Shown here: one piece after another, positions 20,011 through 63,443 of the stretch
Position numbering within the stretch: position 1 is the first letter of the stretch
How the letters are laid out: each line of letters opens with the position of its first letter
NCBI GenBank assembly: GCA_963847705.1
Contig: CAWKBC010000032.1
Coordinates: 224,001-288,000, forward strand
DNA from: an uncultured Pseudomonadota bacterium
GTDB lineage: Bacteria; Myxococcota_A; Polyangia; Fen-1088
Direction: 5' to 3'
Length of the DNA stretch: 64,000 nt
Notes under the pieces: model-generated
Database searches by the model: none
Seen by the model: only the letters and a program-made list of their open reading frames with translations
Told to the model about the DNA's origin: nothing
Program-made: the position numbers and the translations under genes

Positions 20011-20185
20011 GAGACTCAAAGGCTCCAGACACCGCAACCGTCGAAAACCAGATCATTGTGCTCGCGGAATCAATAAATTGCAGGTGACAGCAATCACCAG
20101 GAGCAACGATTGCCAAACACTGCGAGGGCGATCTTGCGTGCGGCGACGATCACGGGCGGCGGCTCACGATTTCAGGCGGTCGCTC

Positions 20186-21490: not shown

Positions 21491-21560
21491 GACCCCCGCG
21501 TTTTAACACGCGCCCGGGGTCGGCCGGAGCAGGGCCGACCGAGCTCCTCTCGACAGGCGA

Positions 21561-22910: not shown

Positions 22911-22925
22911 GTCTCGTCGTTCTCC

Positions 22926-34906: not shown

Positions 34907-41242
<6,336 letters not shown>

Positions 41243-41434
41243 GATCACTCGCCCCCAAGGTCTGGGAAACGGTGAGCGTAGCATTGACCGCCTGCTGATC
41301 ACTCCTCAAGAAAAACGTCAAGCGTGTTGTACAAAACCGCGACGAAATTCTTGGCAAGCGCCTCTTGCGCTTTCACGAGAAGGCCGAACGAAGCAAAAGG
41401 CGGTGGACGACCGCCGAACTGCCCCTAAAGCAGG

Positions 41435-44630: not shown

Positions 44631-45131
44631 TCAGCCAGCCGCGCGGGTGGGCGCCATCGGGCCCAGCCAGGCCCGGGCGCGCCAGCGCCGGAGCGAGCGG
44701 CGAAGCTCGAACGCGGCGACCACGGCCAGGCGACCGAGAAGCCCCGCCGTCACTTCGAGGTCGACGCGCCGGCCGGCGCGCTCCACGGCGATCACGCGGC
44801 CACGAACCTCGGCGGCGGTCACGGGGCGGTCGATCTCCAGCGCCGCGTCTCCGCACAAGGTCAGGCGGGGAGCACGGGATGCGTCTTTTTGGATGGAGAG
44901 AACTCGATGCGCCACCGACCGCGATCCCGTCTGGCACAAAACCACGTCGGCGACATCGACGTCAGCGGCGGCGACCGGGGCGACGATCAGAACCTCGCTG
45001 TCCTCGATCGTCGGCGTCATGCTGCGCCCTCCGGCGCGGAATCGAACGCCGATCCCTTCAGCGAGCAACCCTTCGACGACGGATGCGAAGGCCCCTCGAT
45101 GCAGAGCGCTGTGGCCGTGACTCGATCTCAC
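44631..45131 (-). CDS. S24/S26 family peptidase (Ser/His, Sec11/SipW-like)
   Basis: GRSMTPTI (Ser), DVVL, VAHRV (His), LCGDA. Confidence 0.8.
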   Translation of the reverse strand: MRSSHGHSALHRGAFASVVEGLLAEGIGVRFRAGGRSMTPTIEDSEVLIVAPVAAADVDVADVVLCQTGSRSVAHRVLSIQKDASRAPRLTLCGDAALEIDRPVTAAEVRGRVIAVERAGRRVDLEVTAGLLGRLAVVAAFELRRSLRRWRARAWLGPMAPTRAAG

Positions 45132-45267
45132 GCCTCAACACATCGGAGTTTCCGTCGAGAAAATGAACGATCGGCGCGCGATTCTCGCTCGTGACCGCGG
45201 CGGAGATCTGACGGACGCGGGTGTCACATTTCAGACACGCCTCGACCAGGAGTGCACGGTTCAGTTG

Positions 45268-45443
45268 GCCGCGCGCTCGGTTTGCCGCGCGCTCGGTTTG
45301 CCGCCCGGCCCGTTTGCCGCGCGCTCGGTTTGCCGCCCGGCTCAGGTTTGCGGCGCGCTCGGTTTGCCGCGCAGCCCAGTTGCCGCGCGCTCGGTTTGCC
45401 GCCCGGCCCAGTTGCGGCGCGCCCAGTCGCTGCGCGCTCAGTT
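45268..45443. repeat. About 11 degenerate ~16-bp tandem units (consensus GCCGCGCGCTCGGTTT)
   Basis: Read directly; the last unit overlaps the kinase stop codon at 45438. Confidence 0.85.
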
Positions 45444-46314
45444 GCTGCGGACGAACGCCGGCGCGGCCGCGTCCGGAACGAAGCCGAGCTCGACCGAGCG
45501 GCAGCGGGCGGCGATGCGCTCCAGGGAGCCGAGCATGTCGTCCAGGCCGGCCGCGTCGTAGAACGGCGGAAAGCAGCAGGCGAAGAGGCGCGCGATCGAT
45601 TCGGTGGCCGCCACCGCCGTCATCTGGTTGCGGGGCGCGTGGCGCAGAAAGCAGATCCGATCGAGCGGGGCGCGCCCCTGATTCGAGATGCGCCCATCCC
45701 CATGCCAGGGTGTGCCGTACATCCAGACGACATCGCCTTCCTGGCGCAGCACGACGCGCTCGTCGCTCAGGATCTTCACGCCCGGCTCGGGGAGCCAAAG
45801 GCGGGCCATCGTCGTCTTGCCTGCGCCGGACTGGCCGGCGAACAGCGTCCCGCGGCCGTCGGCGTCGACCACGCCGCTGCCGTGGATGGCGACGCCGCGC
45901 CCCCGGGCCAGCAGGTGCACCATCACCAGCTCGTCGAGCGGATACTGCAACGGGTAGAGCGGCAGCCGCCCGGCGAAGACCTCCCGTCGCACCGAGACCT
46001 CCCCCTCGGTGAAGTCCGGGCTGAACGACGCCATCTGGTAGGGTCGCGTCCCGAGCGGCGCCGAGGTGAACACGAACTGAAGGCCCAGGCCGCCGCGGTA
46101 GAGGCGCCAGAGCCCCTTGCCCGAATCGAACAGCAGATCGCTTGCGTCGGGCTCGCGCGGGTCGCCCCAGTCGGCGCGAATCCGCACCTCGGGCCGCTCG
46201 GCGTCCGAGACGAACTTGGCGGCGGCGCCCGCGGCGGCGATCGGCAGAATCCTCCGCCCCGGACGAGAGCGCAATCTTGATTCCGGCGATGTCGAGCGCG
46301 AACGCTCCGCTCAT
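45438..46314 (-). CDS. HPr-kinase-related P-loop protein (RiPP-associated kinase) with an apparent 1-nt frameshift near 46249
   Basis: AIHGSGVV, FAGQSGAGKTT, ILSDERVVL, YGTPWHG; ATG 46314 overlaps the precursor stop (ATGA) but is out of frame with the body. Confidence 0.75.
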
Positions 46315-46493
46315 GAGCCGAACGTCATGCAGCCGCCGAGCGAGGTGCAGTCGGACTCCGCTGGTCCCGCCACCCCCATCGTCTTGCAGTTGCCGAGCAC
46401 GGCCTCTTCGGGGCGCAAGGCCACCTGCGACAGCGTCGGCTTCTCGTACGGTTTTCGTCCGGAGCCGGGCTCCGGTGGAGACTCTGGTGTCAT
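46311..46493 (-). CDS. RiPP precursor peptide (60 aa): leader with KPYEKPTL RRE-binding motif, core with three Cys and C-terminal Ser
   Basis: GGAG RBS 6 nt before the ATG; MTPESPPEPGSGRKPYEKPTLSQVALRPEEAVLGNCKTMGVAGPAESDCTSLGGCMTFGS; lies between the rSAM and kinase genes. Confidence 0.85.
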   Translation of the reverse strand: MTPESPPEPGSGRKPYEKPTLSQVALRPEEAVLGNCKTMGVAGPAESDCTSLGGCMTFGS

Positions 46494-46502
46494 CCGATGC
46501 TC

Positions 46503-47786
46503 CTATGTCCCTTCCGCGGCGCCACAGGCACCGCACCCACCGCTCGAACAAGACGACGACGAAGCGGTGCTCAAGACTTTGAGTGAGCTGGCCCGCGCCA
46601 GGGGCCGCAGCGCGCCAGCGGCCGCCTGGCCCGCCTGCACGCTGTCGACCGCGCGCAGGAGGCGTTCGTGGTGGGCGCCGCCCTCGCAGAACGCGCACTC
46701 GCCATGCGCCGGCGGCGTGAAGCCGACGACGCGGGCGCGCAGGTGGGCCACCTCGCAGAAGAACTCCACCGGCGCCTCCGGATCGCCATGCTCCAACTCG
46801 CTGGTGGCCGCGCAGGCGGAGCAGAGCGAACGAATGTGGCAGTCGGTGCACTTGGTCGGGCGGGTGATGGTCTTGTCGCGCACCTTGGCCAGGAAGCCCT
46901 CCCACCCCTCCTTGAAGCTCCCCCGGCGCAGATCGAACTGGTCGCTGTGCGACAGCACGCAGATGCTCATCTTCCCTTCGGGATCGATGGCGAAGGAATT
47001 GATGCCGCCGCCGCACTGGTAGACCTTGTCGCGGGTGCCGACCACCGGGCGCGCCCGGGAGGCCAGCTCGGCCCATCCGGCGCGGCGCACCGGATCGAGG
47101 ACGTCGAGCTCGACCATCTCGGCCGGGGAGAGCCGCACCTCGAGCGGGCTGTGCGAGCAGTCGATGCGGGCGTTGATCATCCCGTCGAACTTGAACTCCA
47201 CCCCCAGCTCCTCGGCGAACTGCTGCATCTGGGGGACCTCGTGGCGGTTGATGCTCACCGCGACGGTCTTGAGCCGCAGCGGCAGGCCGCGCTCGGTGAG
47301 CAGGCGGATGCCGCGCATGCAGCGATCGAACGAGCCCGGCACGCCGGTGAGGCGCTCGTAGGTCTCGCGCGTGCGGCCGTAGAGGGTGATCTCCACGGCG
47401 AACGGGCGCCACTCGGCCAGCATGTCGGCGAGCTCCGCCGTCAGCTGCGTGCCGTTGGTGAACAGCGTCACCAGGAGGCCGCGGCGCTTGGCGTGCTGGT
47501 AGATCTCCACGAAGTCGCGGCGGGCCAGGATCTCCCCGCCGGTGAGCAGCAGCCAGAGGCAGCCGGCGTCGGCCATCTCGTCGATGATCCGGAAGACCTC
47601 GGCGGTCGACAGCTCGCTCGCGCGCGCCGCCGCGTCCCCGACCGGGAGGTTGTTGTAGCAGTGCGCGCAGGCCAGCGGGCAGCGGTGGGTGAGCTCGATG
47701 GTGCCGTTGGTGGGCAGGCGTCCGCCTCGCGCCCGCCGGTAGATCTGCGCGCTGAAGTCGCCGTAGCTCCGGAGCGCGGCGTTCAT
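46503..47786 (-). CDS. Radical SAM/SPASM peptide maturase
   Basis: CPLACAHC (CxxxCxxC), TGGE, TNG; SPASM YQCGGG...GKMSIC and CTDCHIRSLCSAC...FFC; ATGA overlap with the PqqD gene. Confidence 0.93.
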   Translation of the reverse strand: MNAALRSYGDFSAQIYRRARGGRLPTNGTIELTHRCPLACAHCYNNLPVGDAAARASELSTAEVFRIIDEMADAGCLWLLLTGGEILARRDFVEIYQHAKRRGLLVTLFTNGTQLTAELADMLAEWRPFAVEITLYGRTRETYERLTGVPGSFDRCMRGIRLLTERGLPLRLKTVAVSINRHEVPQMQQFAEELGVEFKFDGMINARIDCSHSPLEVRLSPAEMVELDVLDPVRRAGWAELASRARPVVGTRDKVYQCGGGINSFAIDPEGKMSICVLSHSDQFDLRRGSFKEGWEGFLAKVRDKTITRPTKCTDCHIRSLCSACAATSELEHGDPEAPVEFFCEVAHLRARVVGFTPPAHGECAFCEGGAHHERLLRAVDSVQAGQAAAGALRPLARASSLKVLSTASSSSCSSGGCGACGAAEGT

Positions 47787-48100
47787 GGGGAGACCTCGCT
47801 GACGAGACCCTTGGCCAGCAGCAGCGCCACGAACTCCTGGACGTCGGCGGCGGCCTCGGCCTCGCTGACTTCGTACTCGCGCGACAGCGCGGCCGCCAGC
47901 GCCTGCACCGAGCTCTTCCCGTCGATCCATTTCCAGATCGAGGCGCCCACCGCGTTGAGGGTGAAGATCGACTCGAGGTCGCCGACGCCGCCGCGGACAG
48001 GAACGATGATGACGTCGTCGGCGATCGTGCGGCTGACGAAGCCTTCGGCCTTGCGAGGGAAGCGGGCAGACGAGATGCCTTCGGTGCTCAACACGTACAT
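47783..48100 (-). CDS. PqqD family RiPP recognition element (RRE)
   Basis: IFTLNAVGASIWKWIDG..SV..LA..L..EYEV...A..DV.EFV..L...GLV. Confidence 0.92.
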   Translation of the reverse strand: MYVLSTEGISSARFPRKAEGFVSRTIADDVIIVPVRGGVGDLESIFTLNAVGASIWKWIDGKSSVQALAAALSREYEVSEAEAAADVQEFVALLLAKGLVSEVSP

Positions 48101-48104
48101 AGTA

Positions 48105-50552
48105 TCAGCTGTCTGCCCTCGAACCTTGAGCCGCGTCAGCAAGATGGCGACGCTCGAGGCGCCTCCGACGTCGCAGCCCGGCCACCCCGCCGGAGGCCAT
48201 CAGGGCCCAGAGCACGAGCTGGCCCGGCCGCCCCCGCCCCGAAAGCTCGCATCCGCAGCCATCGCCGCTGGGAGGCAGGAGCGAGGCCGCGTCTTGGGAA
48301 CCGTCGCTGCCGCCGTGGCCGCTTGCACCGTCGCCCCGACCGGCGTCGGGCATTGTGGCGACCGACGCATCGGCGACCACCCCGGCGTCCGGCCCGGCGG
48401 CGTCGGTCCCGGCCCCGTCGGGGCCGAGGCCCGCGTCGCCCGGCGCCGGCGGCGGCGTGGGCAGGCCAAAAATTGTCGGATCGGCGAACAGGATCCAGGT
48501 CCGTTGCGCGTCGACGTCGGTGATGGCGTGCTTGGCCGCGATGGCGGCCTCGCCGAGCGAGGTGTGGGTCAAGCGCGCGACGAACGCCTGGTCGAGAACC
48601 CCCTGCTGGTCGAACGAGGTGAGCGTCGAGGAGGCCCAGACGGCGACGGCGCCGCCGGCGGGCGCCTTGGTGAGCGTCTCGGCCAGGCTCTCGGTGTACA
48701 CGTCCTGAAAAAAACCGTTCAGGCAGTTCATGCTGACGTAGATGGAGAGGGGGGCGTTGGTGAGCGCCGCGGCGTCGCTGCCCGAGAAGAGGCCATCCCA
48801 CACCGAGACCGATCCGTGGCCCATGTAGTTGACCAGGAACGGCCCGGCATCGAGCAGCGGAAGCAGGGCCGCCTCCGTCGAGCTCGGCTGGCTGAGAAAA
48901 AAATTGCTGGTCGGCATCGAGCCGGCGACCGACGCCGCGCTCGCCTGACTGTCCTCCTCGAACGAGAGGCCGGTCTCATCGGCGTCCGCGATGAAGAGCC
49001 CGCCCTGCGGCAGGTCGGCGGCGCCGCCGTAGCCCAGGATCTTCCCCACCACCGTCGACGCCTCCGAGGCCGTGCGGACCGAGAGTCGTCCGATGGCGAT
49101 GTCCTCGACGCCGTCGGCGTCCCAGTCGACGAACCAGCCATCGGAGGCGGTCTCCATCTGCTGCGTGTCGACGAGCTTGGTGGGGGCGAAGTCGAAGTCC
49201 CCCTGCCCCAGGAAGTTGCGCGGATCGAAGGAGGCGTCGCCGACCAGCAGCACGAACCGCGGCGCCGGCGTCCAGCTGCCGTGAACCGCCTGCAGAAAAT
49301 CGCGCACCGCGAAGGGCGTCTTGTCGCCGGCGCCGAACTCGTCGTACACGTCCTGCAGGTCGACCAGCTGCACCGACCAGCCCTGCTGCCGCCGCGCCGT
49401 CACCAGCGGCGCCAGCGCGTCGATGAAGAGAGCGTTCGAGAGGATCACCATCTCGCCGGCGCGCGGGTCCGTCCAGCGGGACGGCCGGCTGGCGGTGACC
49501 GACGAGGGCGCCACGACGGCGGCGCCGGTGAAGGCGTACAGCGCCGGCCAGGAGGTCTCCCCCGGTGTGTTCACCGTGACGGTGGTGCTCGACCCGGCGG
49601 TGACCACGCTGGTCACGAGCTCGATCGGGCTGGTCGGATCGGTCACGTCCATCACCCGCACGTCGGACGACGAGAACCCCGCGATGGCGATCGGCGTGGC
49701 GGGCGGCGCGGTCAGGTTGAGCGCGTTCCCGTCGGCGACGAACAGGTGCTGGTAGTCGATCTCCACGCTGGCCACCAGCGACTCGTCGGGAGAATCCCCC
49801 TCCCCGACCAGCAGAACGTCGTTGGCCCCCTCGCGCACGCTGACCGGCGAGAGCGCGCAGGTCTGGGAGTCCTGCCCGGCGAACGCGCAGACGCCGACCG
49901 GCTGGCCGTCGAGCGAGATCGCCACCTGGTGGTCTCCGGCCGTGACCCCCTGCAGGACGACCTGCAGCCCGGCCGGCTGCGCCCCGTCGAGGTGAGTGAC
50001 CGACACCGACTCGGTCACGCCGGCGGGGCCGACGACGTCGCCGAAGAAGTTGCTGGCTTCGCCGTTCTTCAGCGCCGCGAAGTAGTTGGTTCGCTGGCGC
50101 AGCACCGCGGCACCTGGAAAATCCTGGGGCGCCGCTCCGCTGGCCGGATACGCCGAGAGGGGGACGCGTTTGCCGGCCGTCCCCGGTCCGACGACCAGCC
50201 AGTAGGTGCGCGCCCCCGTCCAGAGCGTATCGCGCCCCTGGCCGTAGAACTCGATCGCCTCGCCGCTGTCGAACACCGCGTCGCCGTTGCCGGTGATCGA
50301 CAGCGCCTGTTCGACGCCGTCGGCGAAGAGCTGGAGCTGCGCCGGGTCGACCCCTGGAGCGAGCCCGGCCGCGACCAGGGCCGGCTGCGAGACGTGTTGC
50401 CACCCCGTCGAGGTCACCACCAGCTTGACGGCGGGCATCGCGGCCAGCTCCAGCTGGCTCGGCGCGCCCGGGCTGGCCGCAAATGCCGCGGGCGTCGCTG
50501 GCAGGCCGAACGCGCCGAACGCGCCGGCCACGACGAGAGACCAGCGCGCCAT
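48105..50552 (-). CDS. C25 family (gingipain/PorU-like) cysteine peptidase with signal peptide and MYXO-CTERM
   Basis: VKLVVTSTGW, IEFYGQG, DVYDEFG, VLLVGDASFDP, IAIGRLSV, catalytic NYMGHGS and SMNCLNG, WILFADP; tail GCGCELSG + TM + RRRRR. Confidence 0.9.
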   Translation of the reverse strand: MARWSLVVAGAFGAFGLPATPAAFAASPGAPSQLELAAMPAVKLVVTSTGWQHVSQPALVAAGLAPGVDPAQLQLFADGVEQALSITGNGDAVFDSGEAIEFYGQGRDTLWTGARTYWLVVGPGTAGKRVPLSAYPASGAAPQDFPGAAVLRQRTNYFAALKNGEASNFFGDVVGPAGVTESVSVTHLDGAQPAGLQVVLQGVTAGDHQVAISLDGQPVGVCAFAGQDSQTCALSPVSVREGANDVLLVGEGDSPDESLVASVEIDYQHLFVADGNALNLTAPPATPIAIAGFSSSDVRVMDVTDPTSPIELVTSVVTAGSSTTVTVNTPGETSWPALYAFTGAAVVAPSSVTASRPSRWTDPRAGEMVILSNALFIDALAPLVTARRQQGWSVQLVDLQDVYDEFGAGDKTPFAVRDFLQAVHGSWTPAPRFVLLVGDASFDPRNFLGQGDFDFAPTKLVDTQQMETASDGWFVDWDADGVEDIAIGRLSVRTASEASTVVGKILGYGGAADLPQGGLFIADADETGLSFEEDSQASAASVAGSMPTSNFFLSQPSSTEAALLPLLDAGPFLVNYMGHGSVSVWDGLFSGSDAAALTNAPLSIYVSMNCLNGFFQDVYTESLAETLTKAPAGGAVAVWASSTLTSFDQQGVLDQAFVARLTHTSLGEAAIAAKHAITDVDAQRTWILFADPTIFGLPTPPPAPGDAGLGPDGAGTDAAGPDAGVVADASVATMPDAGRGDGASGHGGSDGSQDAASLLPPSGDGCGCELSGRGRPGQLVLWALMASGGVAGLRRRRRLERRHLADAAQGSRADS

Positions 50553-50649: not shown

Positions 50650-53600
50650 ATGACTCGGAGGAGAGCTCTGTTCGGCGTCTCGGGGGGAGTCCTGGCGCTC
50701 GCCATCGCCTGGCCGGCCGCCGTCCAGGCCGCCGCCTGCGCCACCACCGCCTGCGGTTCCGCCACCAGCGTGACCTACAACGGCGCGGCCTTGACCTTTG
50801 CCGGCGCTTCGACGAACGGGACGGTGCGCAGCGAGCTCTGGTACCTGGTCGCGCCGACGAGCGGCGTCCACAACGTGGTGGTCACCGCGCCCAACGCCGA
50901 CGCGGTCACCGCCACCTCGATGTCGTTCACCGGCGTCAACCAGACCACCCCCCTCGGCACCACGGTCTCGGCGATCGGCACCGGCACGACCACGTCGGTC
51001 TCCACCACCAGCGCGGTCGGCGAGCCGCTGTTCGACGTCGTCGGCGCCGTCGGAACCACCCCACCGACCGTGGCCGGCGCGACCCAGACCGTTCGCCAGA
51101 CCAACACCACCGCGACCGGCCTCGACCAGGTGGTCCTCGGCTCCAGCACCGCGCCGGGCGCGGGCGCCACGTCGATCAGCATGTCCTGGACCATCCCCAG
51201 CGCCGACTGGGCCCAGATCGCGGTCCCCATCCAGGCCTCCACCGCACTGACCGCCGTCGCGGTGAGCGCTCTGACCGCGACGTTGCAGCCCGACGGCGTG
51301 CTGGTCCAGTGGAGCGATGGCTATGAGCCGTCGTCGCTGGGATTCTACGTCTACCGCAGCGACGGTACCGGAGGCCGCGTCCGGCTGAACGCCTCGGTCA
51401 TCGCCGGCGGCGCGCTCGGCACGGGAGCGTCGTCGTTCTCCTGGAAGGACGCCTCGGCGGGCTGGGACGGCGCGGTGTCGTACTGGGTCGAAGACGTCGG
51501 CCTCGACGGCTCGATGAGCTGGTACGGTCCGGTCACCCCACGACCCGCCGGCGCCATCGACGCAACGGGCGGCGCGGCCGCGAGCTCGTCCGGCGGCGCC
51601 GCCAGCAGCTGGTCCGGCGCGGGCGGCCAGGCGCCGGCAGAATCGGCCGGGGCGGGCGGGTGCACGGTCGCCGCGCGCGATCCGCGCAGCACGCTGCTGC
51701 AGCTGGTGCTGGCGCTCGGCCTGGTCGCCGGCGTGCGGCGGCGGAAGCGGCTCGCCGCGCTGGTCGTCCTCTACGCCCTGGCGGTCGCCGCCAGCGGGCT
51801 GCTTTCGCCCCGGACCGCCGCAGGCGCGGGCGGCGTCGCCGTCGACGCGACCGCCACCGGGTCGGGCGCCAGCGGATTGACCTTCTCGCACACGATGGGC
51901 GCCGGCGCGAACGGGCTCCTGATCGTGGGGGTGGTCGTCCCGATCACCTGCGACGACACCACGACCGACGGGGCCAACTGCGGGGCCTGCGGCACGACCT
52001 GCGCGCAGGATGTCGGAGCTTCGCTCGGCACGGGTCTGCTCGGCCTGTGGCGCTTCGACGAGGGGAGCGGCACCACCTCGGCCGACTCGTCCGGCAACGG
52101 CAACACGGCCACCCTCTTCAACAGCCCGAGCTGGACCACCGGTTACTCCGGCGACGCCGTCGAGGGGAACGGCACCAGCAGCTACGTCGCGGCCAACATC
52201 GGGACCTGGTTCGGGGCGAACAACACCCTGTCGGTCTCCGCCTGGACCTACGTCAACGCCAGCTCCAGCGGCCCGGTGGTCGGGATCGCCGGGACCAACG
52301 GCTGGAACATGCCATTCCTCAGCGTCAACGGCTCGACCGTCTACGGTTGGCTGTGGGGCGTGCCCGGAACCGACCCGGCCAGCAGCCCCCTCGCGGCGAC
52401 GGTCACCCTCGACGCCTGGCACTTCCTGGCCATCACCTACGATCCGAACGGTGGTGGCGCGGGGATCGGCCAGGAGATCTTCTACGTCGACGGCATGGTC
52501 TCCAGCTCGGCCACCGGGACCTACCAGCCGTCTGGAACGAGCGACGTCTTCACCACGCAGATCGCCGGCGCAAAGCCCAACGGAGGCGCCATGGACAGCG
52601 TCCTGCTCGGCAAGGTCGACGAGGTGCGCGCCTACAACCGGACTCTGAGCGCCGCAGACATCACCGCGCTCTACGGCGGGCGGCTCACCTGCGCGGCCAG
52701 CACCTGCGCGGCCTGCTCCGGGGGCCAGACCGCTTGCAGCGGCAGCTGTACCGACACGTCGACCGACATCGACAACTGCGGCGGCTGCGGACACGCCTGC
52801 AACATCGCCGGCGGCGAAACCTGCGTGGGGGGAACTTGCACCTGCACCACCGGCACCGACTGCAGTGGCGTCTGCTCCACCACCTCCAACGATCCCAACA
52901 ACTGCGGTGGCTGTGGCATCGCTTGCGGAATGCCGACCAGCGCCGCCATCGACAGCGGGCTCATCGGGCACTGGAACCTCGATGAGGGGTCCGGCACGAC
53001 CTCGGCCGATTCGTCGGGGAACGGCAACACGGCGACACTCTCCGGCGCGACCTGGACCACAGGCTACTCCGGCGACGCGGTCGCGGGTGACGGCAGCTCT
53101 ACCTACGTGAGCGCCAACCTGGGGAGCTATTTCGGCACCAACGCCGCCCTCACCGCCAGCGCCTGGGTCTACGCCACCGCGACCACCAACGGTCCTGTCT
53201 TCGGCGTCACCTCCATCCCGGCGGGCGGCGGCTGGAACATGCCCTTCCTCAGCATCGCCGGCTCAACCGCTTACGGATGGTTGTGGGGGGTCCCGGGGAT
53301 CGACGGCGGCTCGAGCCCGCTGGCCGCCACCGTCAGCCTCGACGCCTGGCACTTCCTGGCCATCACTTACACGCCGTCGGGAGGGTCAGGGACGGAGAGG
53401 TTCTACGTCGACGGCGCGCTGGCCGGCACCGCGACCGGCGCCTACCAGCCCTCGGGCCAGGTCGACACCTGGTCCACCACCATCCCCGGCGCCAGGCCAA
53501 GCGCCGTCACCAACAGCTTCCTCAACGGCAAGGTTGACGAGGTGCGCGCCTACAGCCGCGCGCTCAGCGCCGCCGAGATCTCGATCCTCTACAACGCCCG

Positions 53601-54657
53601 CCAGACCTGTTCGTCGTCGATCTGCGGCGGCTGCACCGGCGGCGAGTCGCTCTGTGGCGGCGATTGCACCGACAAGACCATCGACGCCAGCAACTGCGGC
53701 GCCTGCGGCACCAGCTGCAACATCTCCGGCGGTGAGAGCTGCATCTCCAGCAGCTGCGGCTGCGCCAGCGGCACCGACTGCAGCACCGTCTGCGTCGACA
53801 CCACCTCCGATCAGAACAACTGCGGCGGCTGCGGCGCCCCCTGCGGCGCTGTCACCTGCGCCTCCTGCGGCAGCGGGATGGCGGGCCTGTGGCACCTCGA
53901 CGAGGGCTCCGGGTCGACGTCGGCCGATTCATCCGGCAACAACCACACCGCCACGCTCAACAGCAGCCCCGGCTGGGTGACGGGCGAGGCGGGCAACGGG
54001 CTGGCGTTCAACGGCACCAGCTACATGACGGCCACGCTGGGAAGCTGGTTCGGCAACAACAACCCCCTCTCCGCCAGCGCCTGGGTCTTCGCCACCTCCA
54101 CCACGAACGGGCCGATCTTCGGCGTCACCGACACCCTGCCGGGGACGAACTGGAACATGCCTTTCCTGAGCATTGCCGGGTCGACCGTCTACGGCTGGCT
54201 CTGGTCGATGGCCAACAACAATCCCCTGTCGGCGACGGTCTCGCTGAACGCCTGGCACCTCCTCACGATCACCTACGATCCGAACGGAGGCGCCGCCGGC
54301 ACCGGCCAGGAGATCTTCTACGTCGACGGCGCGGTGTCGCAGTCCTCGGACATCACCTACTGGCCCTCGGGCAACAGCGACTTCCTCACCACGCAGATCC
54401 AAAACGCCAAGCCGAGCGGCGTGAACAACATTCTGACCGGCACCATCGACGAGCTCCGCGCCTATACCCGCGTCCTCTCGGCGGGTGAGATCGCGCTGCT
54501 CTACAACGCGCGTCAGACCTGCGTGGGCTCCGTCTGCACCGGCTGTCCGACGGGGACCACCAGCTGCGGCGGCGGCGTCTGCCAGAACACCGCCTGCGGT
54601 GCCTGCGGAAGTCCCTGCTCGGGCACCCAGCAGTGCGTCTCCGGCACCTGCATGTAG
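50650..54657 (+). CDS. Large secreted polyprotein-like adhesin: signal peptide, beta domain, C25-associated TAV domain, internal MYXO-CTERM, second signal peptide, three LamG domains with Cys-rich repeats
   Basis: Signal ending AVQA; TAVAVSALTA...GFYVYR...YWVEDVGLDG..WYGPV; GGCTVAA-TM-RRRKR-TM; three W.(F/L)DEGSG.TSADSSGN...(V/I)DE(V/L)RAY.R.LS LamG units. Confidence 0.85.
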   Translation: MTRRRALFGVSGGVLALAIAWPAAVQAAACATTACGSATSVTYNGAALTFAGASTNGTVRSELWYLVAPTSGVHNVVVTAPNADAVTATSMSFTGVNQTTPLGTTVSAIGTGTTTSVSTTSAVGEPLFDVVGAVGTTPPTVAGATQTVRQTNTTATGLDQVVLGSSTAPGAGATSISMSWTIPSADWAQIAVPIQASTALTAVAVSALTATLQPDGVLVQWSDGYEPSSLGFYVYRSDGTGGRVRLNASVIAGGALGTGASSFSWKDASAGWDGAVSYWVEDVGLDGSMSWYGPVTPRPAGAIDATGGAAASSSGGAASSWSGAGGQAPAESAGAGGCTVAARDPRSTLLQLVLALGLVAGVRRRKRLAALVVLYALAVAASGLLSPRTAAGAGGVAVDATATGSGASGLTFSHTMGAGANGLLIVGVVVPITCDDTTTDGANCGACGTTCAQDVGASLGTGLLGLWRFDEGSGTTSADSSGNGNTATLFNSPSWTTGYSGDAVEGNGTSSYVAANIGTWFGANNTLSVSAWTYVNASSSGPVVGIAGTNGWNMPFLSVNGSTVYGWLWGVPGTDPASSPLAATVTLDAWHFLAITYDPNGGGAGIGQEIFYVDGMVSSSATGTYQPSGTSDVFTTQIAGAKPNGGAMDSVLLGKVDEVRAYNRTLSAADITALYGGRLTCAASTCAACSGGQTACSGSCTDTSTDIDNCGGCGHACNIAGGETCVGGTCTCTTGTDCSGVCSTTSNDPNNCGGCGIACGMPTSAAIDSGLIGHWNLDEGSGTTSADSSGNGNTATLSGATWTTGYSGDAVAGDGSSTYVSANLGSYFGTNAALTASAWVYATATTNGPVFGVTSIPAGGGWNMPFLSIAGSTAYGWLWGVPGIDGGSSPLAATVSLDAWHFLAITYTPSGGSGTERFYVDGALAGTATGAYQPSGQVDTWSTTIPGARPSAVTNSFLNGKVDEVRAYSRALSAAEISILYNARQTCSSSICGGCTGGESLCGGDCTDKTIDASNCGACGTSCNISGGESCISSSCGCASGTDCSTVCVDTTSDQNNCGGCGAPCGAVTCASCGSGMAGLWHLDEGSGSTSADSSGNNHTATLNSSPGWVTGEAGNGLAFNGTSYMTATLGSWFGNNNPLSASAWVFATSTTNGPIFGVTDTLPGTNWNMPFLSIAGSTVYGWLWSMANNNPLSATVSLNAWHLLTITYDPNGGAAGTGQEIFYVDGAVSQSSDITYWPSGNSDFLTTQIQNAKPSGVNNILTGTIDELRAYTRVLSAGEIALLYNARQTCVGSVCTGCPTGTTSCGGGVCQNTACGACGSPCSGTQQCVSGTCM

Positions 54658-59072: not shown

Positions 59073-60152
59073 TCAGTGGCTCGTCGCCAGCGTGGCGACG
59101 CTGCTGCCGAGCTGCTGGATGGCGGCGGCCGGCATCGAACCGATGAGCTGGCAGAAATCGGCGCTCTGCCCGGTGCCGGGATTGGCGGCGTTGAGCGCCG
59201 CCATGAGTGGCGTGAAGTAGAGGTTCGGCGACGGGCCGATGTCGTCGAGCACGTTGAGCGGGAACCCCGTCACCGCTTTGCACTTGGCCTCGAAGTCGGT
59301 CTGGCTCTGCCCTTCGGCGGTGGCGATCGCCACCTGCACCACCTGCGACGGCGAGATGCTGGTGCCGCTCGAGAACGAGAGCCAGGTGACGCCGCCGGAG
59401 GCGTCGGTGTCGAGGAAGATGTCCGTGGGCGAGCGGCCGTTGACGTTGCAAGCGTCGCTCGGCAGCGCGCAGCGCCGGGCGACCGGCTGCAGGTAGACGA
59501 CGATGAACAGATCGCGGGGGCTGTCGAAGAAGGCGCTGCGATCGATCCCACCCTGCCCCGCCGGCAGCGCGGCCGAGTCGAGGCCCTGCCCGAAGCCGAT
59601 CAGGTTTTTCGCCTCGCAGGACTGGCCGTCGCCGTCGAAGTTCCCCGATCCGGCCAGGATCTGCAGCGCCAGCGGCAGGTCGGCGTCGTCGATGTTCGCC
59701 AGCGTCGGCGCGATGATCGGCAGCAGGCTCTGGTAGTTGCTGAGCCCCGCGTCTGCCCCCAGGAGGCCCAGCAGCGCCAGCGCAGGGGGGAGCGACTGGC
59801 TGGAGCTCGAGCCCTGGCGGCCGAGCAGCAGCCGCGGCCCGAACTCGTCACCGTAGGTCGAGATGAGCCCCATGTTCGCGATCGAGAGCCCCCGCGAGCC
59901 CAGGTAGTTCATGAAGCCGGTCATGATCCCGGCGTACTGGTTGGAGAGGTTCACCGAGGTTCGCGCGAGGTTGGCGACGAAGAGGATGCTCGCCGTCAAG
60001 GGAGGTGGCTGCGGCAGCGCGTCGGGGCGGACGGGAAACGGGACCGGGATGTAGATCTTCTTGGTCATCCCGCCGTCGGGGCTGGCGGGCGTGATGATCG
60101 TGCAACCGGCCCCCGCCAGCACCAGAATCAAGAGGAGCGATCGGGTCTTCAT
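59073..60152 (-). CDS. Lipoprotein with a degenerate vWA-like fold
   Basis: GAGC lipobox; SILFVANL...F..YL....MGLIST resembles the vWA beta1-alpha1-beta2 region without a MIDAS; ATGA overlap with the upstream gene. Confidence 0.6.
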   Translation of the reverse strand: MKTRSLLLILVLAGAGCTIITPASPDGGMTKKIYIPVPFPVRPDALPQPPPLTASILFVANLARTSVNLSNQYAGIMTGFMNYLGSRGLSIANMGLISTYGDEFGPRLLLGRQGSSSSQSLPPALALLGLLGADAGLSNYQSLLPIIAPTLANIDDADLPLALQILAGSGNFDGDGQSCEAKNLIGFGQGLDSAALPAGQGGIDRSAFFDSPRDLFIVVYLQPVARRCALPSDACNVNGRSPTDIFLDTDASGGVTWLSFSSGTSISPSQVVQVAIATAEGQSQTDFEAKCKAVTGFPLNVLDDIGPSPNLYFTPLMAALNAANPGTGQSADFCQLIGSMPAAAIQQLGSSVATLATSH

Positions 60153-61957
60153 AGTGCCACCATCTTTCCCTTGTCCTTCGCCGTCGCGGAGCCACTGCCG
60201 GACTTTCCACTCTCGGCGTGCGACGTTTGGGGCGCCTGCAGGCCACGGGCGCGCAGCGTCTGTCGCAGCGCCGCGTAGAGCGCGCGGCGGGCCTCGGCCG
60301 TCTCGCGCGGCGTCGGCGTGACGACCAGCGAGAGATCCTCCTCCAGCGCCGCGGCCACCGTCCGTGGCAGCGTGGAGAGCGTGCGCGAGGCGACCGTCGC
60401 CGAAGCGGTGCGCAGAAAGCGCGCCAGGATCTCCGTCGGGACCCCCACCACCGTGGCCCCGAGCACCTCCTCGGAGACCAGCTCGAACGACTGCTCGGTG
60501 ATGAGCGCGGCCTCGATCGCGCGCGCCTTGACCGGATCGGCGCGCCGCATGGCGTCCAGGATCTCGGCCTGCTCGTCCATCGGCCGCTCCTCGACCAGCT
60601 CCACCGCCAGATCGATGTCGCCGGTCTGGCCCGAGTCGAGGTGGGCCTGTTCGATGGCCCGCGCCCGCAACGTGGCCGCCACGTCGAGCAGGTGCTCCTT
60701 CGAGAGCGACTTGGGAGAGGCGATGGCCGCCGCCAGCGCCGCGCGCTCGCCGGTGGAGCGCGACTCGAGATAGGTCGAACGCAGATGGGCGGGCGCGTAG
60801 CGCAGCGCCGCCGCCCGCACGCTGGGCGGCTCGGGGTCGAGCACCGCGGCCAGCCGCGCCGGCGACACGCCGAGCAGAAACGCGAACTCCTGCTCGACCG
60901 GATCGTCGGCGCCGACCATCCGGTGTTTGAGGATGCGCCGGTGCAGCTGGTCGACGATCTCGCGCGTGTCCGAGCGGGGCCGTCCGTCGACGAGCAGCGC
61001 AGCGGCCTCGCGCAACGCCGAGGCGCAGGCCGGATCGCCGCGGAGATCCTCCACCACGCCGGGGCCGATGAGCTCGACGGCGACGGCGACCTTTTCGATC
61101 TGGTTCTCGCGCAGGAGCTCCCCCATCACGCGCCGGGCCAGCACCCGATCCTCGCGCAGGGCGCGCCGCACCTCGGGGAGATGATCGACCGCCGCCGGCA
61201 GCGCGCCGGCACCGGAGGCCTCGCCGCGCCGATCGGGGGCGGTCCCCTGCTGGATGTTGCGCCGGGCGCGCCGGTCGGCGAGCGCGCTCAGCAGCGCAAA
61301 GCCGAGCGCCCCGATGAGCAGGCCCAGGACGCCGAGCGCGATGGCCACCACCCAGGGGATTCCATGCGTCCCGTTGTCGACGGCCGGCGCGGGCGGCGGC
61401 GGGGGGATCGGGTACGGCTGCGGCGCCGGCTGCTCCCGCTCACGCTGCGGCGCCGGCTGGGGCGGGGGCGGATAGGCGTAGGGAGACATCTCACGCTGTT
61501 GCGGCTGAGGCCGCGGCGTCGGAAAGGCGATCACGCTCTCGGTGATCTCGACGGGAACGTCGAGCATGTCGAGCTTGCTCTTGAGGAGGTTCTTGAGGTC
61601 CTTGCGAAACTGGGCGGGGAGCTTGGCGTCGAGCGTCACCGCCACCTCGACCCGCTCCGCCACGAACTCGGTCCCGGGCGTCAGCTCCTCGAAGCCGGGC
61701 GCCGCGCCGGCCGGCAGCGCCGTGGGGCGATTGACCCGGACGTCGACGTACTTGAGCTCGGCCTGGCCGGGCGCCATCTCCTCCAGCACCGGGGCGATGC
61801 GCCGCGTGACCTCATCGCGCACGTTCGCTTCCAGCAGCTGCGCGTCGTTGCCGAACGGTGGTCGCCGCTCCGCGCGCGCGGAGCCCGCCGCCAACAGGGT
61901 CGCCAGCGCCACCGCGGCCGCCCCCATCCCGGTTCTCATATGAATGATGCGCTTCAT
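60149..61957 (-). CDS. FliF-like (RBM3 + TM + C-tail)-FliG fusion protein (putative rotor)
   Basis: Signal peptide; RRIAPVLEE...ERVEVAVTLD...LKNLL; TM; REDRVLARRVM; EKVAVAVELIG (FliG-N); FAFL...EPPSV (FliG-M); DPVKARAIE...LPRTVAAALEEDL (FliG-C). Confidence 0.7.
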   Translation of the reverse strand: MKRIIHMRTGMGAAAVALATLLAAGSARAERRPPFGNDAQLLEANVRDEVTRRIAPVLEEMAPGQAELKYVDVRVNRPTALPAGAAPGFEELTPGTEFVAERVEVAVTLDAKLPAQFRKDLKNLLKSKLDMLDVPVEITESVIAFPTPRPQPQQREMSPYAYPPPPQPAPQREREQPAPQPYPIPPPPPAPAVDNGTHGIPWVVAIALGVLGLLIGALGFALLSALADRRARRNIQQGTAPDRRGEASGAGALPAAVDHLPEVRRALREDRVLARRVMGELLRENQIEKVAVAVELIGPGVVEDLRGDPACASALREAAALLVDGRPRSDTREIVDQLHRRILKHRMVGADDPVEQEFAFLLGVSPARLAAVLDPEPPSVRAAALRYAPAHLRSTYLESRSTGERAALAAAIASPKSLSKEHLLDVAATLRARAIEQAHLDSGQTGDIDLAVELVEERPMDEQAEILDAMRRADPVKARAIEAALITEQSFELVSEEVLGATVVGVPTEILARFLRTASATVASRTLSTLPRTVAAALEEDLSLVVTPTPRETAEARRALYAALRQTLRARGLQAPQTSHAESGKSGSGSATAKDKGKMVAL

Positions 61958-61971
61958 GAAACCACTCCCAG

Positions 61972-62685
61972 CTAGTGGACCCTAATCACGACCCTGCGAT
62001 TTTCGCTGCGGGCGCGCGTCTGCGCGGAGGCATCGCCCTGCACGGGCGTGGCCGGCCGCGTGTCGGCGTATCCCTGGGCGGAGAGTCGCTGCGGACTGAC
62101 CCCCGCCGCGGTGAAGGACTTGAGCACGTTGATCGCCCGCGCCGAGGAGAGCTCCCAGTTCGAGTCGAACCGGCCCGTGTGGATCGGGACATCGTCGGTG
62201 TGCCCCTCGATGGCGATCTGGTAGCGGTTGTCGATGGTGGGGAGCAGCTTCCCCACCCGATCGATCGCCGCGCGCCCGGTCGGCGTGATGTCGGCCTGGC
62301 CGCTGTCGAACAGCAGCGCATTCTTCAGCTCCATGCGCAGCCCCTCGTCGTCGACGACGGTCTTCACCTGCTGGGTCAGCCCCTGCGCCGCGATCACCGC
62401 GTCGATCTTCTCCTTCAGCACGTCGAGCGAGGGCGGCGGTGCCTGATGCGAGATCGCCGCGGAGACCATCTCGAACTTGCGCAGGTTCACCTTCGACATG
62501 GCCAGCGCCAGGATCAGAAACGCCAGCAACAGGCTGACCACGTCGACGTAGGGGATGAGCCAGGAGGTGTCGTCCTCCTCGCCGTAGGCCAGCAGATCGC
62601 TGGCATCGGGGCCCCGGCTGGGGCTGGCCTTGGCGGAGCGCTTGGCGCCGCCGCCGGGCCCGCCGCCGGTCTCGAGGCCGATCAC
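61972..62685 (-). CDS. motB: MotB family stator protein (TM with conserved Asp, plug, OmpA-like PG-binding domain)
   Basis: WLIPYVD..SLLLAF; LLFDSG; IEGHTD; NWELSSARA; GYADTRP; NRRV; GTGA overlap with the motA stop. Confidence 0.9.
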   Translation of the reverse strand: MIGLETGGGPGGGAKRSAKASPSRGPDASDLLAYGEEDDTSWLIPYVDVVSLLLAFLILALAMSKVNLRKFEMVSAAISHQAPPPSLDVLKEKIDAVIAAQGLTQQVKTVVDDEGLRMELKNALLFDSGQADITPTGRAAIDRVGKLLPTIDNRYQIAIEGHTDDVPIHTGRFDSNWELSSARAINVLKSFTAAGVSPQRLSAQGYADTRPATPVQGDASAQTRARSENRRVVIRVH

Positions 62686-63443
62686 GCGGCCTCCGCGGCG
62701 GAGGGGGCACCGCCGCCCGCGCCGGCCAAGAGGCGCAGGTCGTAGAGCGACCGCCCCTCGGCGATGCTGGTGAGCCCGCGCTCGAGCAGGCGCGCCGACA
62801 CCGAGAGGTTGCGTCCGTAGTTCTCGATCCGCTTGGCGAACGGCGACCAGATCGCATACGCCAGGATGAGGCCGTAGAACGTCGCCAGCTGCGCCACCGC
62901 CATCGCCGGGCCCAGCTGCTCGAAGTTCTTCAGGTTGATGAGCATGTTCACGAGGCCAACGATGGTCCCCATCAGGCCGACGGCCGGCGTGGTGCGGGCC
63001 AGAAAGCGGAACACCTCCTCCGCCTCTTTGACCTGCGACAGGCGCGCGTACGACAGCGTCAGCACGGTCTCGCGCGCATCGGCGCCGCCGCCCGGCTGGA
63101 GCAACAACGGACCGACCTCGCGCAGCAGCGGATCCTCGGCCTCGGCGAGCACCTTGGAGGCCTCGACCGTTCGCCCCTGCTTGAGCTCGCGGCCGAACCG
63201 ATAGAGATCGGCGATCATGCGCGACTCGGCCCGCCGCGCGTTGTAGCGCAGCGCCTGGGCCAGGGTCACCACGCCGCGCCAGATCTCGCGCACGTCGTGC
63301 CCCACCAGCAGGATCGACGGCGGCGCCCCCAGCAAGAGGATGAGCGCGGCCGGGTGAAAGAAGCCGGTGAACCCGTTCGGCATGTGGCTGCGCGTGGAGA
63401 CCAGCGTCGCCCACAATCCCGCCAGCCCGATGATGATGTGCAT
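62682..63443 (-). CDS. motA: MotA family stator protein
   Basis: PAALILLLG; DPLL; PAVGLMGTIVGLVNML..L; LGPAMAVA..ATFYG; PFAKRI. Confidence 0.88.
   Translation of the reverse strand: MHIIIGLAGLWATLVSTRSHMPNGFTGFFHPAALILLLGAPPSILLVGHDVREIWRGVVTLAQALRYNARRAESRMIADLYRFGRELKQGRTVEASKVLAEAEDPLLREVGPLLLQPGGGADARETVLTLSYARLSQVKEAEEVFRFLARTTPAVGLMGTIVGLVNMLINLKNFEQLGPAMAVAQLATFYGLILAYAIWSPFAKRIENYGRNLSVSARLLERGLTSIAEGRSLYDLRLLAGAGGGAPSAAEAA

What the first reader, a model, noticed from the sequence alone, without database searches (positions are those of the whole stretch)
46311..46493. Unannotated-size RiPP precursor with a lasso-type leader, three-Cys core and terminal Ser
Seen: YEKPTL (YxxPxL), then EEAVLG, then core NCKTMGVAGPAESDCTSLGGCMTFGS with Cys36, Cys49, Cys55 and a final Ser. 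Established: YxxPxL leaders bind PqqD-like RREs; SPASM rSAMs form sactionine/ranthionine thioethers; HPr-kinase-like lasso kinases (PadeK type) phosphorylate a C-terminal Ser. Inference: a thioether-crosslinked, C-terminally phosphorylated peptide that combines ranthi/sactipeptide and phospho-lasso logic without a lasso cyclase.
Basis: partly seen in the sequence, partly recalled or inferred. Interest (0 to 1): 0.72.

Follow-up and report, generated by a model that had tools for sequence, protein, structure and literature searches.

The report
Modified peptide tied to surface proteases
This tiny gene is real and belongs to a conserved, experimentally unstudied family of three-cysteine peptides that are likely cross-linked, phosphorylated and trimmed by neighbouring enzymes, and 37 of 38 tested genomes with this gene set also encode predicted exported cysteine proteases, which the peptide may help anchor or control.

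Summary
Confirmed. The 60-aa ORF (46311-46493, minus strand) is a genuine RiPP precursor: 1,181 protein clusters match its profile; 161 of 167 distinct cores keep three Cys and 159 end in Gly-Ser. It sits in a conserved operon: C25 protease, PqqD/RRE, SPASM radical SAM enzyme, precursor, HprK/ScmC-like kinase, S26 peptidase. It is not a lasso peptide. The leader fits the LPP system (PMC13381572) better: a model docks S26 on RRE plus leader (0.83 vs best control 0.00), and the LPP register predicts cleavage after Ala31, not Gly34. The radical SAM active-site profile and a Cys-x3-Gly pattern favour sactionine over ranthionine links (inferred). Ser60 is the only near-invariant hydroxyl residue, so the likely phosphosite. 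Distant relatives are listed as uncharacterised predicted sactipeptides in PMC10288494's supplement; no experimental study was found. This scan reported the same system before on other genomes.

The parts
46311..46493 (-). Precursor peptide gene, 60 aa
46500..46504 (-). Shine-Dalgarno AGGAG, 6 nt before the precursor ATG, overlapping the rSAM stop codon
   Evidence: sequence
46431..46448 (-). RRE-binding motif YxxPxL (Tyr16-Leu21); Tyr16 and Pro19 invariant
46314..46400 (-). Predicted 29-aa core Val32-Ser60 (LPP register; alternative start Asn35), with Cys36, Lys37, Gly43-Pro44, Cys49, Cys55, Gly59-Ser60; Gly at +4 of each Cys
   Evidence: (LPP register); boundary inferred
46503..47786 (-). 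Radical SAM/SPASM enzyme, 427 aa: CxxxCxxC at 36/40/43, seven invariant SPASM Cys, extra Cys-rich C-terminal extension
47783..48100 (-). Stand-alone PqqD/RRE, about 105 aa (start uncertain)
   Evidence: (PF05402 E 3e-19)
45438..46314 (-). HprK/ScmC-like kinase; one extra base at 46248 shifts the frame near codon 22 in this assembly; His131, Walker-A Lys153, Asp171, Asp/Glu172 conserved in homologs (numbering of the 278-aa downstream frame)
44631..45131 (-). Soluble S24/S26 (signal peptidase I-like) peptidase, 166 aa, Ser37/His75/Asp95; predicted leader peptidase
48105..50552 (-). C25 cysteine peptidase, 815 aa, PorU-like N-terminal region, His579/Cys610, signal-like N-terminus, MYXO-CTERM-like tail (tail judged by eye)
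51229..51546 (+). Unnamed 7-stranded beta-sandwich ('TAV' domain, invariant Thr near its start) in the divergent LamG-repeat protein; always found with C25
50650..54657 (+). Divergent large exported LamG/Cys-rich protein carrying the TAV domain
45261..45449 (.). 16-bp tandem repeat (about 9-12 copies) between kinase and S26; related contigs skip it, so not a conserved part

Best explanation
The gene encodes a conserved peptide precursor whose YxxPxL leader likely binds the neighbouring PqqD protein, whose three cysteines are likely joined to glycine alpha-carbons by the radical SAM enzyme, whose last serine is likely phosphorylated by the HprK-like kinase, and whose leader is predicted to be cut off after Ala31 by the S26 peptidase. 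The product would be a 29-residue phosphorylated sactipeptide, most simply with three short i to i+4 rings (Cys36-Gly40, Cys49-Gly53, Cys55-Gly59; inferred). Its job is probably tied to the exported PorU-like C25 proteins that travel with the cassette, and not to free antibiotic action. Shown: gene, operon, conservation, catalytic residues, co-occurrence, two S26-C25 fusions. Modelled: the RRE-leader-S26 complex. Inferred: every chemical step, the ring pattern, the cut site, export and function.
For: Gene order PqqD, rSAM, precursor, kinase recurs across Polyangia, Acidobacteriota and other records. Precursor and rSAM are in the same 14 of 40 relatives. LPP precedent: RRE-dependent SpI peptidase LppS (S29/H68/D93) cuts after leader position -1 with Tyr at -16, and an HprK-like kinase phosphorylates a Ser; here Tyr16 at -16 puts Glu30/Ala31 on LPP's E-2/T-1, both invariant in 24 diverse precursors; S26 keeps Ser 30/30, His 30/30, Asp 28/28. 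Complex model: S26 on RRE+precursor 0.83 vs best control 0.00; the mark was reached by 116 of 157 solved complexes and 2 of 215 mismatched pairs (counts hold only roughly, own alignments, three chains); runs agree in at least 92% of contacts, partner pLDDT at least 83; precursor residues 24-36 touch S26, whose interface includes the catalytic Ser. Six active-site-proximal positions of PMC10288494, mapped by me by motif: Y-T-F-T-V-L (30-34 of 34 each) vs sactisynthase StsB Y-T-I-S-K-L and ranthisynthase CteB F-F-T-S-H-Q; SkfB reads Y-T-F-S at the first four. Gly at Cys+4 in 32, 38 and 75 of 76 dereplicated cores against a 0.21 background, nearly absent at +1 to +3; StsA has Cys-Gly sactionines. 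Ser60 is the only near-invariant hydroxyl residue; lasso kinases act on a C-terminal Ser with a His-Lys-Asp-Asp motif, matched here by H131 32/34, K153 33/34, D171 31/34, D or E172 31/34. C25 present in 37 of 38 tested cassette genomes.
Against: No family cut-off is met: best rSAM scores are heme enzymes AhbD 118.9 and NirJ2 109.1, MftC 100.6, PqqE 98, StsB 90.6 of 625. Fold matches tie SuiB (Z 24.6, rmsd 3.6, 310 aligned; a C-C linker) with SkfB (Z 24.1, rmsd 4.0, 277 aligned). Only 3 of 6 profile positions are identical to StsB. The Cys-x3-Gly pattern was found after the fact; only 17 of 76 cores have Gly at all three sites, and Gly43 (72 of 76) is another candidate acceptor. LPP is phosphorylated at core Ser3, not the C-terminus; the kinase here scores only 16-31 bits on HprK/ScmC models. 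No exporter lies in this cassette (ABC family in 6 of 40 loci). The kinase is frameshifted in this assembly. The model may pass through likeness to solved RRE-leader complexes and does not name the scissile bond.
Confidence: 0.52

Rival explanations
1. Same pathway, different radical chemistry: the rSAM forms ranthionines or no thioether at all (for example oxidation or decarboxylation at the C-terminal Gly-Ser, or a link involving invariant Lys37), and the Cys residues form a disulfide or bind metal.
For: Highest HMM scores are non-thioether enzymes AhbD, NirJ, MftC, PqqE; closest solved sequence is PqqE (E 2e-19); SuiB and anSME are among the top folds; Lys37 is in 105 of 105 cores; the enzyme has five extra conserved Cys of unknown role.
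Against: Three Cys with fixed spacing in 161 of 167 cores; active-site profile closer to StsB and SkfB than to PqqE (S-S-I-S) or CteB; 44 of 105 cores have no aromatic residue and 25 no Asp/Glu, so aromatic or Asp/Glu acceptors are not general.
Confidence: 0.25
2. The mature peptide is the anchor or nucleophile for self-processing surface proteins: C25 domains cut beside the invariant Thr of the TAV domain and join the passenger to the peptide's new N-terminus or Lys37, while phospho-Ser60 is coupled to surface polysaccharide or lipid by the nucleotidyltransferase. (Concerns function; compatible with the best explanation.)
For: C25 in 37 of 38 tested cassette genomes, including 10 of 10 where it is not in the fetched locus; 1 to 28 C25 matches per genome; S26 fused in frame to a signal-like segment, passenger, TAV and C25 in 2 loci; TAV in all 23 C25-bearing loci; His-Cys dyad in 23 of 23; better match to PorU than to gingipain by length aligned; T9SS cargo proteins are amide-bonded to a seryl or glycyl sugar; NTP_transf_5 in 9 loci and polysaccharide genes nearby; the paralogous cassette on C17 is present in 11 of 12 genus genomes without full-length C25, so the link is specific to this peptide type.
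Against: G011 has three C25 matches and a TAV domain but no cassette; G023 has the cassette and no C25 found. 5 of 14 class-level genomes without this precursor have C25. Polyangia C25 proteins already carry MYXO-CTERM-like tails. No export route for the peptide is evident. Only 4 independent pairs on the recA tree (p 0.125).
Confidence: 0.27
3. The peptide is a free signal or antimicrobial, or a regulator/inhibitor of C25; the C25 genes are co-inherited as part of a cell-surface module or trim the exported peptide (for example after Lys37).
For: LPP and paeninodin clusters also sit in capsule loci with unknown roles; exceptions to co-occurrence exist in both directions (G011, G023); sister cassettes exist without C25.
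Against: Co-occurrence persists when unlinked; S26-C25 fusions; no immunity gene or regular exporter in the cassette.
Confidence: 0.25
4. In this particular genome the pathway is decaying: the kinase frameshift is real and the peptide is made unphosphorylated or not at all.
For: One extra base at 46248 relative to 5 of 5 aligned relatives.
Against: All 5 contigs from 3 public runs that report a difference there lack the base (the fourth run shows no such row); all other genes are intact and 96-97% identical to relatives with an intact kinase; several other loci show scattered frameshifts typical of assembly error. The organism's own reads were not available.
Confidence: 0.2
5. It is a lasso peptide completed in trans by a cyclase and B2 peptidase encoded elsewhere.
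For: Lasso-type RRE and leader motif; contig C41 has a PqqD-containing gene, a weak B2-like gene (25 bits, under cut-off) and an Asn-synthase-like gene.
Against: No Asp/Glu at core positions 7-9 under either start; 25 of 105 cores lack Asp/Glu; among 58 neighbour proteins scanned a B2 domain occurs near the cassette in 1 locus only (L048); the cassette has its own peptidase.
Confidence: 0.02

Closest known systems
Linear polyphosphorylated peptides (LPP; LppA/B/K/S/D/N, Popov et al. 2026, PMC13381572)
   Same: Discrete lasso-type RRE, YxxP leader, SpI-like Ser/His/Asp leader peptidase, HprK-like kinase, no cyclase; NTP transferase and polysaccharide genes near many homologous loci.
   Different: LPP has no radical SAM enzyme or C25 (0 mentions in the main text), a FET leader end, phospho-Ser at core position 3 and variable C-termini; here PEEA at that register, Gly at +3, a fixed three-Cys core and terminal Gly-Ser; other phyla.
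Phosphorylated lasso peptides (paeninodin/PadeK, ThcoK; review PMC9266682)
   Same: RRE leader motif, HprK-like kinase with His-Lys-Asp-Asp-type motif, conserved C-terminal Ser.
   Different: No B2 peptidase or cyclase in the cassette, no ring acceptor; rSAM and S26 instead.
Sactipeptides (StsA/StsB, SkfB) and the uncharacterised precursor groups 6, 16 and singletons of Precord et al. 2023 (PMC10288494 supplement)
   Same: SPASM rSAM with discrete RRE, Cys-rich core, similar active-site profile, Gly-rich acceptors; supplement rows such as OGR25482.1 and group 6 share the leader end and Cys-Lys start by eye.
   Different: StsA is a hairpin with clustered Cys; here Cys are spread 12 and 4-6 apart. 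Kinase, S26 and C25 are not mentioned in that paper's main text. No member near this family was tested there as far as the text seen shows.
SynChlorMet (ScmC/D/E/F) and HPr-rel-A/B cassettes (NCBIfam models only)
   Same: Kinase-like + PqqD + SPASM rSAM; kinase's nearest Atlas clusters carry Pfam ScmC (51% and 22% of members, score 0.98).
   Different: All models far below cut-off; one rSAM, not two; no substrate or function known for those cassettes in the papers searched.
[quoted passage not shown]
   Same: C25 His-Cys dyad, PorU-like N-terminal region, an Ig-like domain on partner proteins.
   Different: 158 of 420 bits; C25 often fused to its own passenger; acceptor unknown; T9SS presence not tested.

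Membership tests
Lasso peptide | [Y/W]xxPxL leader and discrete RRE | tested here: met
Lasso peptide | B2 peptidase and macrolactam cyclase in the cluster | tested here: not met
   none among cassette genes; genome matches lie on other contigs
Lasso peptide | Asp/Glu acceptor at core position 7-9 (rule recalled) | tested here: not met
   Thr-Met-Gly or Val-Ala-Gly at those places; 25 of 105 cores lack Asp/Glu
LPP | RRE + SpI-like peptidase + HprK-like kinase, no cyclase | tested here: met
LPP | Leader consensus ending FET and Ser at core position 3 | tested here: not met
   PEEA and Gly34 at that register
LPP | NTP transferase and MsbA-like exporter in the cluster | tested here: not met
   absent from this cassette; NTP_transf_5 on contig C23; in 9 distant loci
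Sactipeptide | SPASM/twitch rSAM with RRE and a Cys-containing precursor | tested here: met
Sactipeptide | Sactisynthase-like active-site profile or family score | tested here: inconclusive
   3 of 6 identical to StsB, 3 of 4 to SkfB; StsB model 90.6 of 625 bits
Sactipeptide | S-to-alpha-carbon thioether in the product | not testable with these tools
   needs mass spectrometry
Ranthipeptide | CteB-like active-site profile | tested here: not met
   0 of 6 positions identical; no SCIFF/CteB model among the best 25 of 66 shown
Ranthipeptide | S-to-beta/gamma-carbon thioether in the product | not testable with these tools
   needs chemistry; Gly acceptors would exclude it
Phospho-RiPP (PadeK type) | His-Lys-Asp-Asp kinase motif and conserved C-terminal Ser | tested here: met
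   fourth residue is Asp in 16 and Glu in 15 of 34; my mapping, PadeK itself not aligned
SynChlorMet cassette | ScmC, ScmD, ScmE and ScmF above cut-off, two rSAM genes | tested here: not met
   16.5/125, 30.5/100, 87.9/400, 74.2/400 bits; one rSAM
PorU sortase (for the C25 gene) | C25 His-Cys dyad and PorU-like N-terminal region | tested here: met
PorU sortase (for the C25 gene) | NF033707 above cut-off | tested here: not met
   158.2 of 420 bits
PorU sortase (for the C25 gene) | Transpeptidase activity and a type IX secretion system | not tested
   T9SS genes were not searched; activity needs bench work

The most novel reading that the evidence does not exclude
A ribosomally made, cross-linked phosphopeptide serves as the covalent anchor of a sortase-like protein display system outside Bacteroidota: one cassette makes the peptide, and up to dozens of passenger-TAV-C25 surface proteins per genome cut themselves beside the TAV domain and attach to it, with phospho-Ser60 tying the peptide to the cell surface. 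This would be a RiPP used as an envelope building block, in the role that the seryl sugar of A-LPS plays for PorU.
Probability: 0.27. Interest if true: 0.92.

Novelty: new variant of a known kind. Interest (0 to 1): 0.66.

Why it matters
It defines the substrate, likely cut site and likely chemistry for a large uncharacterised class of kinase + RRE + radical SAM cassettes (over 1,100 precursor clusters), joining LPP-type leader handling to sactipeptide-type cross-linking; the five small genes can be co-expressed directly. The genetic tie to PorU-like C25 proteins (37 of 38 genomes, two S26-C25 fusions, up to 28 C25 matches in one genome) gives a handle on two open questions at once: what phosphorylated RiPPs such as LPP and paeninodin do (stated as unknown in PMC13381572), and what C25 proteases attach their cargo to outside Bacteroidota.

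Tried and rejected
No Pfam or NCBIfam family matches the precursor or three homologs and two sister precursors. No RNA holder was listed among sequencing runs; no statement on expression follows. Promoter and terminator scans gave chance-level counts. A profile search of 200 phylum-level genomes gave 4 weak matches (E 7e-4 to 9e-3), none taken as members. The TAV domain has no NCBIfam match, a Pfam RGI_lyase beta-sheet match in 6 of 17 members, and only generic FnIII/Ig folds (best E 8e-4), so no T9SS CTD homology was shown; the wide structural search and the Atlas look-up for it did not run. Fold search did not separate thioether from C-C chemistry. The S26 had no solved-structure match by sequence. 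The independent-pairs test had only 4 pairs and cannot reach significance; the tree held 21 of 27 genomes, and G011, the C25-only exception, was among the six left out. The leader position table returned nothing (faulty pattern). The search of 50%-identity representatives never ran. Literature searches; none listed a study of this cassette; exact leader strings gave 0 papers; one search was swamped by unrelated acronyms. Subscription papers are not covered, the PadeK primary paper was not held, and the SI PDF of PMC10288494 (Figures S26-S30) and the supplements of PMC13381572 were not seen; they may discuss this family. Rejected: lasso membership, LPP membership, CteB-type ranthipeptide, and C25 cutting after Lys37 by a gingipain-type acidic pocket (alignment too weak to place that residue).

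Full report
Observation. The finding is correct on the minus strand: 60 aa, YEKPTL at 16-21, EEAVLG at 29-34, Cys36/49/55, Ser60, with a good ribosome-binding site. The motif set alone is not rare (14 such ORFs in the genome), but conservation is strong. A single-sequence search scored 95 of 95 candidates and a 24-sequence profile found 1,181 clusters at E<=0.01 among 1,259 candidates. Among 105 distinct cores, Cys-Lys opens all 105, 98 have three Cys and 98 end in Ser; in a larger set of 167, 161 have three Cys and 159 end Gly-Ser. These sets were collected by similarity, which favours conservation. No Pfam or NCBIfam model knows the peptide.

The cassette. On the minus strand: C25 peptidase (48105-50552), PqqD (47783-48100), rSAM/SPASM (46503-47786), precursor, HprK-like kinase (45438-46314), S24/S26 peptidase (44631-45131). 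The order PqqD, rSAM, precursor, kinase recurs in 40 loci from records titled Polyangia/Myxococcales, several Acidobacteriota classes, Planctomycetes and others, except where contigs end or genes are displaced. Among 40 relatives the precursor and the rSAM occur in the same 14; 200 phylum-level genomes gave only 4 weak matches, so the system is patchy. On a recA tree of 21 of 27 genomes it needs 6 changes, at least 4 on starred branches.

Kinase frameshift. The natural start overlaps the precursor stop, but one extra base at 46248 shifts the frame near codon 22. Five of five aligned relatives lack it, as do 5 contigs from 3 of 4 public runs laid there. An assembly error is more likely than decay, but the source reads were not available.

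Leader and cleavage. The RRE's closest solved relative is lasso TbiB1, so 'lasso-type leader' holds for the motif. Lasso membership fails: no cyclase or B2 in the cassette and no ring acceptor. The better model is LPP (PMC13381572; I read the abstract and sections 6, 7, 9, 11, 12), where a discrete RRE presents the leader to an SpI-like peptidase (S29/H68/D93) that cuts 16 residues after the leader Tyr. The S26 here keeps Ser37, His75, Asp95 in 30/30, 30/30 and 28/28 rows. The same register puts invariant Glu30 and Ala31 at -2 and -1 and predicts a 29-aa core from Val32; aligning on the conserved Leu with sister precursors shifts this by one, and Val-Leu-Gly34 also fits the classic signal peptidase rule (recalled), so the site is not fixed. 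A three-chain model placed S26 on RRE plus precursor with score 0.83 against a best control of 0.00 (mark reached by 116 of 157 solved complexes and 2 of 215 mismatches; counts hold only roughly here; at least 92% contact agreement; partner pLDDT at least 83), with precursor residues 24-36 in contact and the catalytic Ser in the interface. This supports binding; it does not show it.

Radical SAM chemistry. The enzyme has the SAM motif and seven invariant SPASM Cys (34 of 34); by my recalled comparison with anSME this leaves one auxiliary-cluster site open, as in thioether-forming enzymes, unless Cys210 (27 of 34) fills it. Family scores are all far below cut-off and led by heme enzymes, MftC and PqqE; StsB scores 90.6 of 625. 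The model (pLDDT 86) matches SuiB and SkfB equally. Using the six active-site positions of PMC10288494 (sections 7, 9, 10 and passages read), mapped by motif, the enzyme reads Y-T-F-T-V-L: 3 identical to StsB, 3 of the first 4 to SkfB, none to CteB. In this peptide every Cys has Gly four residues later; across 76 dereplicated cores Gly stands at +4 in 32, 38 and 75, against 0.21 background, and is nearly absent at +1 to +3. A Gly acceptor can only give a sactionine. The pattern is post hoc and complete in only 17 of 76 cores. I put sactionine formation at about two in three.

Kinase target. In LPP the phosphosite is core Ser3; here that position is Gly. Ser60 is the only near-invariant hydroxyl residue, and lasso kinases act on a C-terminal Ser through a His-Lys-Asp-Asp motif (review passages), which the homologs keep with Asp or Glu last. 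The intact kinase's nearest Atlas clusters carry Pfam ScmC in 51% and 22% of members. Phospho-Ser60 is likely, not shown.

The C25 link. C25 lies in 23 of 40 loci (18 of 25 loci of 15 kb or more), always with an unnamed beta-sandwich domain that has an invariant Thr near its start. Ten further cassette genomes without C25 in the fetched locus all have it elsewhere, 1 to 28 matches, and four more were positive. That makes 37 of 38 tested; G023 (80% complete) lacks it and L064, L068 were not tested. In the genus, 11 of 12 cassette genomes have full-length C25 and 1 of 12 without the cassette does (G011; one more has a weak partial match); at class level 5 of 14 genomes without the precursor have C25. 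The background rate in Acidobacteriota was not measured. A sister cassette on contig C17, with its own LPP-like precursor, is in 21 of 24 genus genomes, including 11 of the 12 without full-length C25, which argues that the joint absences are not mere incompleteness and that the link is specific. In two Bryobacterales loci the S26 is fused in frame through a signal-like segment to passenger, TAV and C25. The catalytic His and Cys are kept in 23 of 23 loci. The independent-pairs test is underpowered (4 pairs, 3.8 concordant, p 0.125, G011 left out). T9SS cargo is amide-linked to a seryl or glycyl sugar (abstract of PMC7468200) by PorU transpeptidation (search listing), which suggests the anchor reading; G011, the membrane tails on Polyangia C25 proteins and the missing exporter weigh against it.

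What is known. Nine literature searches listed no study of this cassette. The supplement of PMC10288494 lists look-alike precursors as 'Other Uncharacterized' (group 6, group 16, singletons such as OGR25482.1; compared by eye), and the text predicts sactisynthases for six unassigned groups; I infer that groups 6 and 16 are among them but could not see the figures. RRE-Finder notes about 300 lasso-type RREs beside rSAM genes as false positives (passages). Earlier notes of this scan describe the same system in other genomes; they gave me the LPP paper and the anchor wording, and I tested the co-occurrence myself.

Verdict. Real precursor of an unstudied RiPP family; works like LPP for leader handling, probably like a sactipeptide for cross-linking and like paeninodin for phosphorylation, but is a member of none by the tests run. 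New variant of a known kind; interest 0.66, with a 0.27 chance of a much larger story in surface protein anchoring.

Noticed in passing
window 46248: One extra base frameshifts the kinase gene in this assembly; relatives and related contigs lack it.
   Followed up: yes
window 46503-46742 (rSAM residues 349-427): C-terminal extension with conserved His361, Cys364, Cys367 (30 of 34) and a Cys-x-x-Gly-Gly-Cys-x-x-Cys-like tail (22-23 of 34); possible extra metal site; absent in the two most distant homologs (L029, L030).
   Followed up: partly
L070:6339-9407 (G000 contig C17): Second cassette: 52-aa precursor with a WxxP leader, LPP-like leader end, two Cys and final Ser, then kinase, PqqD, rSAM; its rSAM is in 21 of 24 genus genomes and is not tied to C25.
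   Followed up: partly
L069:6295-11922 (G000 contig C47): Second C25 protein, 1,876 aa, with an internal weak MYXO-CTERM match, LamG and Cys-rich repeats and a TAV domain near the C-terminus.
   Followed up: partly
L071:6100-8000 and G000:C41:13943-15073: Lasso-like locus: PqqD-containing genes, weak B2-like gene, Asn-synthase-like gene, methyltransferase; no precursor sought.
   Followed up: no
L046:12331-16089 and L049:3380-7126: S26 peptidase fused in frame to signal-like segment, passenger, TAV domain and C25; S26 fused to NTP_transf_5 in L045:12823-14460.
   Followed up: partly
G243 (genome of L047): 28 C25 matches in one Blastocatellia genome, most full length in ORFs of 600-2,500 aa.
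   Followed up: no
window 50650-54657: The LamG protein has a MYXO-CTERM-like membrane segment in its middle followed by more extracellular domains; the same read-through is in 5 relatives, so it is not an assembly error.
   Followed up: partly
L043, L046, L062, L066: A second kinase-PqqD-rSAM cassette lies within 10 kb of the first; L046, L062 and L066 show candidate precursors of other types, and L066 has two rSAM genes like SynChlorMet.
   Followed up: no
window 45261-45449: 16-bp tandem repeat between kinase and S26, skipped in related contigs.
   Followed up: partly
window 34907-41302: 2,131-aa hybrid histidine kinase with a long run of HAMP-like repeats (judged from the translation), next to a response regulator-kinase; unrelated to the cassette.
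   Followed up: no
window 17920-24824: DUF1552 (HXXSHH) and DUF1585/1587/1588/1592/1595 gene cluster typical of Planctomycetes and Myxococcota.
   Followed up: no
window 60149-63443: FliG-like C-terminal domain protein and MotA-like protein on the minus strand.
   Followed up: no
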